DNA from: Escherichia coli
GTDB lineage: Bacteria > Pseudomonadota > Gammaproteobacteria > Enterobacterales > Enterobacteriaceae
Strand: one strand, 5' to 3'
DNA: 64,000 nucleotides
NCBI RefSeq assembly: GCF_024223415.1
Contig: NZ_CP100500.1
Under the pieces are notes generated by a model, which was not told where the DNA came from, searched no databases, and saw only the letters and a list, made by a program, of their open reading frames with translations. The position numbers and the translations under genes are program-made. Positions 2,253 through 5,316 of the stretch are shown here, one piece after another (position 1 is the stretch's first letter; every line of letters begins with the position of its first letter).

Positions 2253-3200
2253 ATGCGTGTGTTACTGGCACCGATGGAGGGAGTGCTTGACTCTCTGGTG
2301 CGTGAATTGCTGACCGAAGTTAACGACTACGATCTGTGCATCACCGAGTTTGTCCGCGTGGTGGATCAACTGCTGCCGGTAAAAGTCTTTCATCGCATTT
2401 GCCCTGAGCTACAAAACGCCAGCCGGACACCATCTGGTACGCTGGTGCGCGTGCAGTTGTTAGGTCAGTTCCCACAATGGCTGGCAGAGAACGCCGCCCG
2501 TGCGGTGGAGTTAGGTTCCTGGGGCGTGGATCTCAATTGCGGCTGCCCGTCGAAAACGGTTAACGGTAGCGGCGGCGGGGCGACGTTACTCAAAGATCCT
2601 GAACTCATCTACCAGGGTGCAAAAGCGATGCGTGAAGCTGTACCGGCGCATTTGCCCGTCAGCGTGAAAGTGCGTCTGGGCTGGGACAGCGGTGAGAAGA
2701 AATTTGAAATCGCCGATGCGGTTCAACAGGCTGGCGCTACGGAGCTGGTGGTGCATGGGCGGACGAAAGAGCAGGGTTACCGCGCGGAGCATATTGACTG
2801 GCAGGCGATTGGCGATATTCGCCAGCGGCTGAATATTCCGGTGATTGCCAACGGTGAAATCTGGGACTGGCAGAGCGCGCAACAATGCATGGCGATCAGC
2901 GGCTGCGACGCAGTGATGATTGGTCGCGGGGCGCTCAATATTCCCAACCTGAGCCGGGTGGTAAAATATAACGAACCGCGAATGCCGTGGCCGGAGGTGG
3001 TTGCTTTGCTGCAAAAATATACCCGTCTGGAAAAGCAGGGCGATACCGGGTTATATCACGTTGCGCGGATTAAACAGTGGTTGAGTTATTTGCGTAAAGA
3101 ATACGATGAAGCAACGGAATTATTTCAGCATGTTCGGGTGTTGAATAATTCCCCTGATATTGCAAGGGCTATTCAGGCAATTGATATCGAGAAACTCTAA
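2253..3200 (+). CDS. dusC: tRNA-dihydrouridine synthase C
   Basis: Track ORF 2187..3200; start taken at [13 protein letters not shown]...; Dus-family TIM-barrel motifs (LNCGCPS, VHGRT). Confidence 0.9.
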
Positions 3201-3241
3201 AAAACCATAGTGATGTTTTTTGACAATGTGTTAGCTCTTTA

Positions 3242-3502
3242 TCAATAGGCCGCACGGTTGTTTGGTGGCGTCAAAATTGCCGAGGCGTTCCCTGAAGGCC
3301 GGGGCAGCCCACATGGATGTGGGCTGAGGGCGCGTTTTACAGGGATGTTACCTCGCGCCCGACCCGGTAGCCGTAAGGGATAAGCCGAGGGCACCGCGCA
3401 GCGGCGATTTTGTTCGCCAGAGCCCGGGGGTGCAGGGGGCGGCGGCGATTGGCCGCCCCCTGCGCGCTCCTTGCGCCAGTGATTATATGAAGCAATGCAC
3501 AT
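3242..3502. repeat. GC-rich palindromic intergenic element (unclassified structured repeat)
   Basis: Very GC-rich stretch between dusC and yohP with a perfect 12-bp inverted repeat gcagggggcggc...gccgccccctgc and a second hairpin gcccacatggatgtgggc; the overlapping 86-aa Pro/Gly-rich ORF is not credible as coding. Confidence 0.4.
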
Positions 3503-3572
3503 GACAGGAGCGCAACAGGATGAGAGACTGAAATATTCTCGTTATTTTCGGACCTGATGACATTAATTAATT

Positions 3573-3656
3573 TTAAAATATCATCTTAAATACGCCAGTC
3601 ACCACCAGTAGCCCAATCAGGAAAATAATCAATACAGCCCAGAGTATAATTTTCAT
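3573..3656 (-). CDS. yohP: 27-aa small membrane protein
   Basis: Reverse-strand ORF MKIILWAVLIIFLIGLLVVTGVFKMIF; matches the K-12 small protein YohP from memory; too short for the ORF track. Confidence 0.7.
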   Translation of the reverse strand: MKIILWAVLIIFLIGLLVVTGVFKMIF

Positions 3657-3879: not shown

Positions 3880-5316
3880 ATGAATCGTGATTCCTTTTAT
3901 CCAGCCATCGCCTGTTTTCCGCTGTTACTGATGCTGGCCGGGTGTGCGCCTATGCATGAAACCCGCCAGGCGTTAAGCCAGCAAACGCCCGCTGCACAAG
4001 TTGACACCGCATTACCCACGGCGCTGAAAAATGGTTGGCCAGACAGCCAATGGTGGCTGGAGTATCACGATAATCAACTCACTTCCTTAATTAACAATGC
4101 ACTACAGAACGCACCGGATATGCAGGTGGCTGAACAGCGCATTCAGCTAGCTGAAGCCCAAGCGAAGGCAGTTGCCACTCAGGATGGTCCGCAGATCGAC
4201 TTTTCGGCGGATATGGAGCGGCAAAAAATGTCGGCAGAAGGCTTAATGGGGCCGTTTGCTCTGAACGATCCGGCCGCAGGTACGACCGGCCCGTGGTACA
4301 CCAACGGTACTTTTGGCTTAACGGCGGGCTGGCATCTCGATATCTGGGGAAAGAATCGGGCGGAGGTTACTGCCCGCCTGGGTACGGTTAAAGCACGGGC
4401 GGCGGAACGCGAGCAAACCCGCCAATTGCTGGCTGGCAGCGTAGCCCGCCTGTACTGGGAGTGGCAAACCCAGGCGGCGTTAAACACGGTCTTGCAGCAA
4501 ATAGAAAAAGAGCAGAACACCATTATCGCGACCGATCGCCAGCTATATCAGAACGGGATTACTTCTTCAGTTGAAGGTGTGGAAACCGATATTAATGCCA
4601 GCAAAACCCGGCAGCAGCTCAACGATGTCGCGGGGAAAATGAAAATTATTGAGGCACGGTTAAGCGCACTTACAAATAACCAGACAAAGTCATTGAAGCT
4701 TAAACCGGTCGCGTTGCCGAAAGTGGCAAGCCAGCTTCCTGATGAACTGGGGTACTCCTTACTGGCCCGGCGGGCAGATTTGCAGGCGGCGCACTGGTAC
4801 GTTGAGTCATCGCTAAGCACCATTGATGCGGCAAAAGCGGCATTTTATCCTGACATCAACCTGATGGCCTTCCTGCAACAGGATGCGTTGCACTTAAGCG
4901 ATCTGTTCCGTCATTCCGCGCAGCAAATGGGCGTTACGGCAGGCCTGACGCTACCCATTTTCGATAGTGGTCGTCTTAACGCCAATCTCGATATCGCAAA
5001 AGCCGAAAGCAACTTGTCTATCGCCAGCTACAACAAAGCGGTGGTTGAAGCGGTGAATGACGTGGCGCGGGCAGCCAGTCAGGTTCAGACACTGGCGGAG
5101 AAAAACCAGCATCAGGCGCAAATTGAGCGCGATGCCTTGCGTGTGGTAGGTCTTGCGCAGGCGCGCTTTAACGCGGGCATCATTGCTGGTTCCCGCGTCA
5201 GCGAAGCCAGAATCCCCGCGCTGCGTGAGCGGGCCAATGGCCTGTTATTGCAAGGGCAGTGGCTGGATGCCTCCATTCAACTCACTGGTGCGTTGGGCGG
5301 GGGTTACAAACGCTGA
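3880..5316 (+). CDS. mdtQ: outer membrane efflux lipoprotein (OMF family), apparently intact
   Basis: Track ORF 3790..5316; start taken at MNRDSFYPAIACFPLLLMLAGCAP (lipobox LAGC); OprM/TolC-like; uninterrupted 478-aa frame. Confidence 0.8.
   Translation: MNRDSFYPAIACFPLLLMLAGCAPMHETRQALSQQTPAAQVDTALPTALKNGWPDSQWWLEYHDNQLTSLINNALQNAPDMQVAEQRIQLAEAQAKAVATQDGPQIDFSADMERQKMSAEGLMGPFALNDPAAGTTGPWYTNGTFGLTAGWHLDIWGKNRAEVTARLGTVKARAAEREQTRQLLAGSVARLYWEWQTQAALNTVLQQIEKEQNTIIATDRQLYQNGITSSVEGVETDINASKTRQQLNDVAGKMKIIEARLSALTNNQTKSLKLKPVALPKVASQLPDELGYSLLARRADLQAAHWYVESSLSTIDAAKAAFYPDINLMAFLQQDALHLSDLFRHSAQQMGVTAGLTLPIFDSGRLNANLDIAKAESNLSIASYNKAVVEAVNDVARAASQVQTLAEKNQHQAQIERDALRVVGLAQARFNAGIIAGSRVSEARIPALRERANGLLLQGQWLDASIQLTGALGGGYKR

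What the first reader, a model, noticed from the sequence alone, without database searches (positions are those of the whole stretch)
3242..3502. Unusually GC-rich, highly structured intergenic element between dusC and yohP
About 260 bp of very GC-rich sequence carries a perfect 12-bp-stem inverted repeat (gcagggggcggc / gccgccccctgc) and further hairpins. It has no credible coding potential and does not match the REP consensus seen elsewhere in the window. It may be a different repeat family (BoxC/RSA-like), a structured ncRNA, or an insertion relic.
Basis: seen in the sequence. Interest (0 to 1): 0.35.

Follow-up and report, generated by a model that had tools for sequence, protein, structure and literature searches.

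The report
TRIP1c repeat: a conserved structured RNA
The GC-rich hairpin-filled stretch after dusC is TRIP1c, a copy of an E. coli repeat family known since 1999. New here: the family spans many enterobacteria, is under selection to fold as an RNA, and resembles the orphan TwoAYGGAY RNA motif.

Summary
Window 3244-3516 is about 64% G+C, holds a perfect 12-bp hairpin stem that no shuffle reproduced, and folds far better than shuffles. It is already known: it is 100% identical to K-12 2229122-2229394, which is TRIP1c of the TRIP1 repeat family (Rudd 1999; Li et al. 2024, PMC10888264). That work reports 0-5 copies per E. coli genome, variable direction, and copies that act as inversion substrates. 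No function is known.

New findings:
- The family occurs in at least 10 enterobacterial genera, 49-97% identical to this copy.
- A 77-pair fold is kept by compensatory changes in 57 pairs. G-U pairs outnumber A-C mismatches, and G·A pairs are strand-specific. Both point to selection on an RNA of the dusC-sense strand.
- The core (a long closing stem plus two hairpins with CA(N)GGAYG loops 27-29 nt apart) matches Rfam TwoAYGGAY. E. coli copies score below threshold (about 30 vs 43 bits); a partner copy in Pseudocitrobacter scores above it (49.2 bits).
- The loops fit the CsrA binding consensus, but published E. coli CsrA CLIP-seq and Term-seq show nothing here.

The most likely role is a protein-binding structured RNA, possibly binding CsrA. 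This is unproven.

The parts
3244..3516 (+). Whole element: TRIP1c (K-12 NC_000913.3 2229394-2229122). It starts 43 bp after the dusC (yohI) stop codon.
   Evidence: Window 3240-3525 is 100% identical to L005 7399-7114, which is K-12 2229398-2229113. Li et al. 2024 give TRIP1c as 2229122-2229394, 43-44 bp downstream of yohI.
3256..3516 (+). Match to the family covariance model R1 (259 positions, 77 base pairs).
   Evidence: 242.3 bits, E 1.2e-65, full length. It is the only hit in the 64-kb window.
3258..3409 (+). TwoAYGGAY-like core domain (sub-threshold Rfam RF01731 match).
   Evidence: cmscan gives 30.9 bits against a gathering score of 43, E 0.011, covering model positions 1-168 of 168.
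3264..3288 (+). 5' arm of the long closing stem P1. It pairs with 3396-3424.
   Evidence: Minimum-free-energy fold. In family alignment A2, helices 1-2 have changes on both sides in 15 of 19 pairs.
3396..3424 (+). 3' arm of closing stem P1.
3289..3303 (+). 5' arms of the inner stems: UCCCU pairs with AGGGA (3376-3380), and GGCCGGG pairs with 3363-3372. Together they form the junction that carries the two hairpins.
   Evidence: In A2, helix 4 has 4 of 5, helix 5 has 2 of 4 and helix 6 has 1 of 4 pairs with changes on both sides; G·A/A·G cells at several positions.
3305..3326 (+). Hairpin 1: stem CAGCCCAC / GUGGGCUG with loop AUGGAU (GGA at 3315-3317).
   Evidence: Perfect 10-bp inverted repeat. 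In A2 helix 7, 8 of 9 pairs show compensatory change. The loop CA(N)GGAYG is conserved in 117 of 120 copies.
3328..3360 (+). Hairpin 2: stem GGGCGCG / CGCGCCC with an inner AC/GU closure and loop AGGGAU (GGA at 3343-3345). UUACAGGGAUGU matches 11 of 12 positions of the CsrA SELEX consensus RUACARGGAUGU.
   Evidence: In A2 helix 8, 9 of 13 pairs show compensatory change. Loop statistics are and the consensus is taken from PMC7652899.
3426..3470 (+). GC-rich hairpin.
   Evidence: In A2 helix 10, 9 of 12 pairs show compensatory change, for example GC to AU and CG to UA.
3465..3512 (+). Terminal stem CGCUCCU (3465-3471) / AGGAGCG (3506-3512). It encloses a ~34-nt loop (3472-3505) whose sequence varies between copies. 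The 3' tail is CAAC (3513-3516).
   Evidence: RNAalifold pairs in columns 254-260 / 300-306 switch between UA and CG and between AU and CG. In A2 helix 11, 6 of 7 pairs show compensatory change and 99.1% of cells are paired. In this copy alone the minimum-free-energy fold prefers the alternative register UUGCGC / GCGCAA.

Best explanation
The region is TRIP1c, one copy of the TRIP1 interspersed repeat family of E. coli.

Shown here:
- TRIP1 is not specific to E. coli. It is a family of about 260-nt units found across Enterobacteriaceae.
- The sequence is under selection to keep one RNA secondary structure on the strand that is sense to dusC.
- The fold has a long closing stem and a junction carrying two hairpins. 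Their hexaloops read A-N-G-G-A-Y, are closed by a C-G pair, and their GGA motifs are 27-29 nt apart. Then come a GC-rich hairpin and a terminal stem around a variable loop.
- This architecture is that of the orphan Rfam motif TwoAYGGAY.

Inferred:
- The element is transcribed, either by read-through from dusC or from a weak promoter-like segment that travels with it.
- It acts as a stable RNA that binds a protein. The two GGA loops form a bidentate site for a dimeric protein specific for such loops. CsrA is the most likely candidate, at roughly 30%.

At the DNA level the copies also serve as substrates for homologous recombination that inverts chromosome segments (Li et al. 2024).

Confidence by step: identity as TRIP1c about 0.98; selection on the RNA about 0.8; same class as TwoAYGGAY about 0.8; binding of CsrA about 0.3. 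The overall figure of 0.55 is for the statement as a whole (identity, RNA-level selection and a protein-binding RNA role).
For: Identity: the window element is 100% identical to K-12 coordinates that contain TRIP1c. Copies lie at aqpZ-lysO, alx-sstT and dusC-yohP, as published.

Spread: copies were found in Klebsiella, Citrobacter, Enterobacter, Leclercia, Kluyvera, Silvania, Atlantibacter, Pseudocitrobacter, Raoultella and Escherichia species. There are 111 distinct full-length copies, 49-97% identical to this one.

Structure:
- On a plain MAFFT alignment, RNAalifold predicts 38 pairs, 26 of them with compensatory changes.
- On the alignment fitted to the covariance model, 90.3% of cells are paired against 75.6% in shuffles and 36-43% when the partners are slid.
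- 57 of 77 pairs have changes on both sides, and 0 of 500 shuffles reach the observed values on all five measures.

Strand:
- G-U cells outnumber A-C cells by 404 to 185. Without the loop-closing position the count is 404 to 119.
- 23 pair positions have 3 or more G-U cells, against 8 with 3 or more A-C cells.
- On the structure-independent alignment the count is 48 to 13 (my count from the pair table).
- Tandem G·A/A·G cells in the hairpin 1 stem match the tandem-GA feature reported for TwoAYGGAY.

TwoAYGGAY:
- E. coli copies score 29.9-30.9 bits. A head-to-head partner copy in Pseudocitrobacter scores 49.2 bits, above the threshold of 43.
- The Psychromonas members of the 2010 alignment carry the same ACAUGGAUGU and ACAGGGACGU loops and a long P1 stem.

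CsrA-like sites: 117 of 120 copies carry two or more CA(N)GGAYG motifs, and the GGA-GGA spacing is 27-29 nt in 114 of those 117. The SELEX consensus RUACARGGAUGU, the hexaloop closed by AC/GU, and dimer bridging of sites 10-63 nt apart are from PMC7652899.
Against: - No transcript has been shown. Term-seq lists no 3' end at K-12 2,229,000-2,229,499.
- No sigma-70 promoter or intrinsic terminator is predicted in or beside the copies scanned.
- The published E. coli CsrA CLIP-seq has no peak with these coordinates or sequences. Reads from repeats may have been discarded, so this is weak negative evidence.
- The hairpin stems are long and GC-rich. High-affinity SELEX ligands mostly had stems of 4 bp or fewer.
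- The first A of the ACA motif, invariant in SELEX, is replaced by G or C in most copies, where it covaries as a base pair.
- E. coli copies fall below Rfam's gathering score.
- The covariance-model alignment is fitted to the structure and leans towards it.
- Many of the sequences are related copies, so cell counts overstate the number of independent events.
Confidence: 0.55

Rival explanations
1. TRIP1 is a purely DNA-level repeat with no RNA function. On this view it is a selfish or neutral palindromic element (cruciform-forming, as Rudd proposed). It persists in gene-poor slots at 3' ends and matters only as a recombination substrate.
For: - Presence, copy number and orientation vary between strains, and the copies mediate inversions.
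- Copies sit mostly between convergent genes (43) and rarely between divergent genes (6). Between co-directional neighbours there is no orientation bias (21 against 19) (a crude ORF heuristic).
- Copies often lie next to REP or boxC repeats, in slots that other repeats can also occupy.
- No promoter, terminator, CLIP peak or Term-seq 3' end was found.
Against: - Watson-Crick palindromes would be equally good on both strands. Yet G-U is favoured over A-C by 404 to 119-185, and strand-specific G·A pairs recur.
- The unpaired loop sequences CA(N)GGAYG are conserved even between copies only about 50% identical, while the stems covary freely.
- A relative passes the threshold of an RNA family model.
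- No terminal inverted repeats or target-site duplications were seen at filled against empty sites.
Confidence: 0.2
2. TRIP1 is a structured RNA element that acts in cis within the 3' UTR of the upstream gene (here dusC). It would work as a stabiliser against 3' exonucleases, a transcription roadblock, or an insulator between convergent genes, as REP/BIME elements do.
For: - In the window the RNA strand is sense to dusC and begins 43 nt after its stop codon.
- 72 of the 101 copies with an upstream ORF call have that ORF on the same strand.
- The fold is very stable, at -137.6 kcal/mol.
Against: - Between co-directional genes the element is antisense as often as sense (19 against 21).
- At aqpZ-lysO, dusC-yohP, alx-sstT and yegH-asmA both orientations occur in Escherichia.
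- K-12 TRIP1a is antisense to aqpZ and lysO.
- Conserved loop sequences are not needed for a simple stability element.
Confidence: 0.15
3. TRIP1 is a functional structured RNA whose partner is not CsrA. The partner could be another protein specific for GGA loops, or another RNA. The variable loop in the terminal stem could serve as a copy-specific recognition segment.
For: - All the structural evidence above applies.
- The ~34-nt loop inside the strictly conserved terminal stem differs between copies.
- There is no CsrA CLIP-seq signal.
- The stems are longer than those typical of CsrA sites.
Against: - No candidate partner has been identified.
- No protein gene is consistently adjacent.
- The loops fit the CsrA consensus better than any other motif I know of (my own knowledge).
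Confidence: 0.2

Closest known systems
TRIP1 repeats of E. coli (TRIP1a-e; Rudd 1999; Li et al. 2024, PMC10888264)
   Same: It is the same object. The coordinates, the distance from yohI/dusC, the length (273 bp), the 62-65% G+C, the predicted stable 'double-Y' RNA fold, the variable direction and the multi-locus distribution all agree.
   Different: Nothing differs for this copy. What is added here, and is absent from that paper, is the occurrence outside E. coli, the covariation and strand evidence, the link to TwoAYGGAY, the CsrA-like loops, and a diverged subfamily at yegH-asmA.
TwoAYGGAY RNA motif (Rfam RF01731; Weinberg et al. 2010)
   Same: - A long closing P1 stem.
- Two adjacent hairpins with A-Y/R-G-G-A-Y loops.
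- A purine linker between the hairpins.
- Tandem G·A pairs in a stem.
- Several copies per genome in a gamma-proteobacterium (Psychromonas).
- A partner-type copy in Pseudocitrobacter that passes the gathering score.
   Different: - E. coli copies score about 30 bits, below the 43-bit threshold.
- The second loop is usually AGGGAY rather than AYGGAY.
- The enterobacterial units carry about 100 further conserved nucleotides at the 3' end (a GC hairpin and a terminal stem) that are outside the Rfam model.
- No enterobacterial accession was seen in the stored part of the 2010 alignment.
CsrB/CsrC-type CsrA-sequestering small RNAs
   Same: GGA motifs are presented in hairpin loops within CA(N)GGAYG, close to the CAGGAUG repeats of CsrB and to the SELEX consensus. 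The spacing is compatible with bridging by one CsrA dimer.
   Different: - There are only two loop sites per unit, not the 13-22 of CsrB/CsrC (range quoted in the abstract of PMC6546359).
- The stems are long and stable.
- No terminator is predicted.
- No CLIP-seq peak is reported.
- No sequence homology exists; Rfam CsrB/CsrC models did not match.
REP/BIME, boxC, ERIC and RSA intergenic repeats of enterobacteria
   Same: All are interspersed and intergenic, able to form hairpins, polymorphic between strains, often placed at 3' ends of genes, and often next to one another.
   Different: - TRIP1 has no REP core.
- The sequence differs from the boxC-like palindromes of the K-12 alx-sstT spacer.
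- The unit is much longer, the copy number much lower, and the multi-helix fold is complex with conserved loops.
- RSA (150/151 bp, 6 copies) could not be compared.

Membership tests
TRIP1 repeat family | Sequence identity with K-12 TRIP1c (NC_000913.3 2229122-2229394). | tested here: met
   Window 3240-3525 is 100% identical to K-12 2229398-2229113, so TRIP1c corresponds to window 3244-3516.
TRIP1 repeat family | Position 43-44 bp downstream of the yohI (dusC) stop codon, in the spacer towards yohP/yohG (mdtQ). | tested here: met
   The dusC ORF ends at 3200 and the element starts at 3244. yohP is at 3573-3656 on the - strand.
TRIP1 repeat family | Paralogous copies at aqpZ-ybjE(lysO), alx-sstT and putP-ycdN(efeU). 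| tested here: met
   Copies L001/L004/L134 lie at aqpZ-lysO and L002 at alx-sstT. K-12 TRIP1b, with its internal deletion, aligns.
TwoAYGGAY RNA (RF01731) | Score at or above the Rfam gathering threshold (43 bits). | tested here: not met
   The window scores 30.9 bits, L001 30.6 and L002 29.9. A homologous partner-type copy, L030 2218-2281, scores 49.2 bits.
TwoAYGGAY RNA (RF01731) | Two terminal hairpin loops containing AYGGAY. | tested here: inconclusive
   Loop 1 is AUGGAU, which fits. Loop 2 is AGGGAU, with R in place of Y. The Psychromonas sequences in the 2010 alignment also have CAGGGAC loops.
TwoAYGGAY RNA (RF01731) | A closing P1 stem, often very long (for example 24 bp). | tested here: met
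   3264-3288 pairs with 3396-3424, about 22 pairs with bulges. The stem covaries.
CsrA-sequestering sRNA (CsrB/CsrC class) | CsrA binding in vivo. | tested here: not met
   The CLIP-seq table of Potts et al. 2017 has no peak with these coordinates or sequences. Handling of multi-mapping reads is unknown, so the negative result is weak.
CsrA-sequestering sRNA (CsrB/CsrC class) | Many (13-22) GGA sites per RNA, a discrete transcript, and an intrinsic terminator. | tested here: not met
   There are two loop GGA sites, and four GGA triplets in all. No terminator-like site is predicted. No Term-seq 3' end is listed.
REP/BIME | The REP consensus core (GCC[GT]GATG[CA]G[GA]CG). | tested here: not met
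   Cores are found at window 6194 and 13043 only, and none lies within 3201-3572.
MITE / non-autonomous transposon | Terminal inverted repeats, and a target-site duplication at filled against empty sites. | tested here: not met
   Comparison of empty, filled and inverted alleles at yegH-asmA and alx-sstT shows replacement of a spacer segment, without a clean duplication or terminal repeats. The two ends of the unit (..CCGCAC / ..GCGCAAC) are not inverted repeats.
RSA repeat | A 150/151-bp unit present in 6 copies in K-12. | not testable with these tools
   Only the length and copy number were found. No RSA sequence or coordinates are held, and the RefSeq table shows no repeat features, even where a REP is visible.

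The most novel reading that the evidence does not exclude
TRIP1 repeats are the enterobacterial members of the orphan TwoAYGGAY RNA class. They would encode a functional RNA that captures a CsrA dimer, or another protein specific for GGA loops, through its two hairpin loops. That would give E. coli K-12 three or four unannotated loci of a regulatory RNA, and the variable terminal loop could add copy-specific specificity.
Probability: 0.3. Interest if true: 0.65.

Novelty: already known. Interest (0 to 1): 0.4.

Why it matters
As first described, the element is a catalogued repeat (TRIP1c), so the finding itself is not new.

What could matter is the connection made here. TwoAYGGAY has been an orphan motif since 2010, with no function and no tractable host. 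TRIP1 has been treated only as a DNA repeat of E. coli. If the two are the same thing, the motif can be studied in E. coli K-12. K-12 has three TRIP1 copies plus one truncated copy of a diverged subfamily, so all of them can be deleted. The CsrA-binding hypothesis published for TwoAYGGAY also becomes directly testable.

There is a practical point as well. These repeats cause apparent intermediate-frequency 'mutations' in resequencing data and large inversions, so annotating them would help the analysis of genome data.

Tried and rejected
- Coding: the ORFs have no Pfam match, the frames are not conserved, and copy lengths differ by non-multiples of three.
- Other Rfam families: nothing but TwoAYGGAY scored better than chance-level hits. 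AgvB scored 22.9 bits against a threshold of 56, and the microRNA hits come from the GC hairpin.
- Phage origin: no match among 50,697 phage records.
- True plasmid carriage: most 'plasmid' hits are chromosomes or chromosome fragments filed as plasmids, for example records of 4.9-5.4 Mb.
- Intrinsic terminator or sigma-70 promoter: none is predicted inside or next to the element in the window or in four other loci. The conserved upstream segment in Enterobacter, Leclercia and Silvania copies reads TTAAAG-17-AATAAT at best. That is 8 of 12 positions, below the scan threshold.
- In-place inversion as the cause of the two orientations at dusC-yohP: rejected as a recent event. The two alleles are only 87% identical and their spacers are not homologous in either orientation (z at most 1.9).
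- An ancestral head-to-head pair followed by loss of one member: Citrobacter youngae does have such a pair at dusC-yohP. However, pair members are heterotypic, about 60% identical in Citrobacter and about 50% in Kluyvera and Pseudocitrobacter. The two E. coli alleles are 87% identical, and no spacer homology was found. The idea is therefore not supported in its simple form.
- MITE-type transposition: no terminal repeats or target duplications.
- CsrA CLIP-seq and Term-seq look-ups: negative.
- RSA identity: could not be tested.

Full report
**Observation.** The window is E. coli DNA. dusC is on the + strand and ends at 3200, and yohP is on the - strand at 3573-3656. Between them, G+C rises to 0.61-0.72, against 0.35-0.45 in the flanks. 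The perfect 12-bp inverted repeat is at 3432-3443 / 3452-3463. A perfect 10-bp repeat is at 3305-3314 / 3317-3326, and a 16-nt outer repeat is at 3272-3287 / 3397-3412. None of 1000 shuffles of the region reached a 12-bp perfect stem. The + strand folds as RNA to -137.6 kcal/mol, z = -5.2. The ORFs in the region have no Pfam match and are not conserved among relatives. The true limits are 3244-3516.

**It is a repeat.** Megablast against 5,426 complete E. coli genomes found the sequence in all but one, with a median of 3 and up to 8-10 places per genome. Other copies lie between aqpZ and lysO (ybjE) and between alx and sstT. In about 2,100 genomes the dusC-yohP spacer carries the element in the opposite orientation. 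There the element is only about 89% identical, although the flanking genes are 97-100% identical.

**Identity.** A literature search on the neighbouring genes found Li et al. 2024 (PMC10888264).
- The E. coli K-12 genome holds three TRIP1 repeats, first described by Rudd in 1999.
- TRIP1c is NC_000913.3 2229122-2229394, 43-44 bp downstream of yohI (now dusC).
- The window element is 100% identical to K-12 2229113-2229398, so TRIP1c is window 3244-3516.
- The paper reports 62-65% G+C, a predicted stable 'double-Y' RNA fold, and 0-5 copies in 6,725 genomes at five loci.
- It reports both directions at the TRIP1a and TRIP1c loci, and 156 rearrangements, including a 1.3-Mb inversion between TRIP1a and TRIP1c.
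- It gives no function. It does not mention other genera, covariation, Rfam or CsrA. No paper in the library that mentions TwoAYGGAY is about TRIP1.
- RefSeq annotates nothing under any copy examined.

**Beyond E. coli.** Distant BLAST against the plasmid collection, which includes mis-filed chromosomes, and one pattern scan of species-representative genomes found copies in ten enterobacterial genera. These are Klebsiella (up to 13 places in one genome), Raoultella, Citrobacter, Enterobacter, Leclercia, Kluyvera, Silvania, Atlantibacter, Pseudocitrobacter and Escherichia (E. coli, E. albertii, E. whittamii and unnamed Escherichia species). No phage record matched. There are 111 distinct full-length units of about 257-260 nt, 49-97% identical to the window copy. 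Copies are often arranged head to head as heterotypic pairs (Citrobacter, Kluyvera, Pseudocitrobacter, Leclercia, Atlantibacter), and sometimes in tandem (Klebsiella L006). Citrobacter youngae has such a pair at the dusC-yohP-mdtQ locus itself.

**Structure.**
- On a plain MAFFT alignment of the 111 units, RNAalifold predicts 38 pairs, 26 of them with compensatory double changes.
- I derived a 77-pair consensus from the individual folds, built a covariance model (R1) and realigned 135 matches (A2).
- On A2, 90.3% of cells are paired, against 75.6% after shuffling and 36-43% when the partners are slid. 57 of 77 pairs have changes on both sides. No shuffle out of 500 reaches the observed values on any of the five measures.
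- This alignment is fitted to the structure and many rows are related, so the numbers are upper bounds. The structure-independent result points the same way.

**Modules in the window**.
- The closing stem P1 pairs 3264-3288 with 3396-3424.
- Inner stems form a junction.
- Hairpin 1 is at 3305-3326, with loop AUGGAU.
- Hairpin 2 is at 3328-3360, with loop AGGGAU.
- The GC hairpin is at 3426-3470.
- The terminal stem pairs 3465-3471 with 3506-3512. It encloses a ~34-nt loop that differs between copies.
- The 3' tail is CAAC.

**Strand and molecule.** In the paired columns of A2, G-U cells outnumber A-C cells by 404 to 185, or 404 to 119 without the loop-closing position. 23 pair positions have at least 3 G-U cells, against 8 with at least 3 A-C cells. 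On the MAFFT/RNAalifold pairs the count is 48 to 13 (my count from the pair table). Tandem G·A/A·G cells recur in the hairpin 1 stem. This is a feature reported for TwoAYGGAY. A DNA palindrome would not distinguish the strands, so selection appears to act on an RNA of the + strand, the strand sense to dusC here.

**Relation to TwoAYGGAY.** cmscan aligns window 3258-3409 to the whole of RF01731 at 30.9 bits (E 0.011). This is below the gathering score of 43, and other E. coli copies score about the same. In Pseudocitrobacter faecalis, the head-to-head partner of a TRIP1-like copy scores 49.2 bits on the two-hairpin core, which is above threshold. That partner has the same module order and the same terminal stem sequence (CGTTCAC...GTGAACGGAAC) as the Citrobacter and Enterobacter subfamily, which BLAST links to TRIP1. 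The Psychromonas members of the 2010 alignment are multi-copy, have a long P1, and have loops ACAUGGAUGU and ACAGGGACGU. I conclude that TRIP1 belongs to, or is a close sister of, the TwoAYGGAY class. Formal Rfam membership of this copy is not met.

**Loops and CsrA.** 117 of 120 full-length units have at least two CA(N)GGAYG motifs, and in 114 of those 117 the GGA motifs are 27-29 nt apart. The CsrA SELEX consensus is RUACARGGAUGU, with GGA in a hexaloop closed by AC/GU. One dimer can bridge sites 10-63 nt apart. Hairpin 2 of the window (UUACAGGGAUGU) matches 11 of 12 positions. The RMfam paper had already proposed that TwoAYGGAY binds CsrA.

Several points count against this idea:
- The stems are much longer than in SELEX ligands.
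- The first A of ACA covaries as a base pair rather than being conserved.
- The E. coli CsrA CLIP-seq table has no peak at these coordinates or with these sequences.
- Term-seq lists no 3' end in the K-12 element.
- No promoter or terminator passes the scan.
- In Enterobacter, Leclercia and Silvania copies, about 60 nt upstream and about 80 nt downstream also travel with the unit. The upstream part is weakly promoter-like (TTAAAG-17-AATAAT) and the downstream part contains a boxC-like hairpin.

**Genomic behaviour.** At alx-sstT, K-12 has boxC-like palindromes where other strains have TRIP1d, and E. whittamii has the element inverted.

At yegH-asmA a diverged subfamily, about 72% identical to TRIP1c, occurs in several states. 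It is absent with only a REP present (L130), full length in the + orientation (ST131, L132), full length inverted between inverted REPs (L133, L035), or 5'-truncated (K-12, L131). This locus is not among the five in the 2024 paper.

The orientation alleles at one locus are no more alike than copies at different loci, at 86-93%, and their spacers are unrelated. They are therefore distinct old haplotypes rather than recent flips. Their origin is unexplained.

A crude ORF-based count gives 43 copies between convergent genes and 6 between divergent genes. Between co-directional genes, 21 are in the sense orientation and 19 antisense.

**Verdict.** The finding is real and is an already described repeat, TRIP1c. 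The naming (BoxC/RSA-like) and the 'insertion relic' option are not supported. The added value is evidence that TRIP1 is a conserved structured RNA of the TwoAYGGAY type across Enterobacteriaceae. It has CsrA-like loops, and neither expression nor function has yet been demonstrated.

Noticed in passing
L131 529-785 (K-12 yegH-asmA spacer); L132 704-963 (+); L133 697-956 (-); L130 (empty site): A diverged TRIP1-like subfamily (about 72% identical to TRIP1c, ending in GTGAACGGAAC) occupies the yegH-asmA spacer. It is 5'-truncated in K-12, full length in ST131, inverted between inverted REPs in other strains, and absent (REP only) in some. This locus is not among the five TRIP1 loci in Li et al. 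2024.
   Followed up: partly
window 3201-3572 compared with L003 2430-2830: The two orientation alleles of the dusC-yohP spacer are 87-89% identical in the element and have unrelated spacers. In the inverted allele, dusC ends ...IDIDKLR* instead of ...IDIEKL*, and it runs into a hairpin (AAGCTGCGAT...ATCGCAGCTT). How opposite orientations arose at four Escherichia loci is unexplained.
   Followed up: partly
L045 623-880 (-) and 961-1217 (+); also L008, L015, L030, L031, L089, L127 and others: Head-to-head heterotypic pairs, with the left ends 45-210 nt apart, are common outside Escherichia. Citrobacter youngae has such a pair at the orthologous dusC-yohP-mdtQ locus.
   Followed up: partly
L135 1590-1710 (K-12 alx-sstT spacer): K-12 has two boxC-like palindromes (CCCTCTCCC...GGGAGAGGG with GGGGTGAGGG) in the slot where other strains carry TRIP1d. 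Similar boxC-like hairpins directly follow the unit in Enterobacter, Leclercia and Silvania copies.
   Followed up: partly
L072 downstream of 2347 and of 2970; L073, L081, L082, L083: Atlantibacter copies are followed by a run of roughly 17-18-nt tandem repeats. Each repeat contains (C)GAACGGAAC, the 3' terminal motif of the unit, which itself holds a GGA.
   Followed up: no
L085 8477-8811, L078 6396-6729, L080 1339-1672: Three copies are about 334 nt long because part of the core is duplicated internally over about 75 nt. The nhmmer hits overlap at model positions of about 96-155.
   Followed up: no
K-12 915,226 and 2,229,177 / 2,229,205 (window about 3461 and 3433): A resequencing study (PMC11510482) lists intermediate-frequency 'mutations' at these positions, which lie inside TRIP1a and TRIP1c. 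They are probably read cross-mapping or gene conversion between the copies, not adaptive changes.
   Followed up: no
window 3880-5316: mdtQ (yohG) is an intact 478-codon ORF in the window, but a pseudogene split into two pieces in MG1655. The window therefore comes from an E. coli strain other than MG1655, although the TRIP1c spacer is identical.
   Followed up: no
hits H31 and H67 (dusC-yohP spacer); H149-H153 (yegH-asmA spacer): Some strains carry an IS1 inserted in the dusC-yohP spacer. Others carry a RelE/ParE toxin-antitoxin pair inserted in the yegH-asmA spacer. These repeat-bearing spacers appear to be general insertion hot spots.
   Followed up: no
window 3490-3550 (-): There is a weak match to the Rfam AgvB (anti-GcvB) sRNA model, at 22.9 bits against a gathering score of 56 (E 0.079). 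It overlaps the 3' end of the element on the opposite strand and is probably due to chance.
   Followed up: no
L021 863-949 (+): A C4 antisense RNA (RF01695; 55.3 bits, above threshold) lies about 215 nt from a TRIP1-like copy (392-648) in an Enterobacter metagenome-assembled genome.
   Followed up: no
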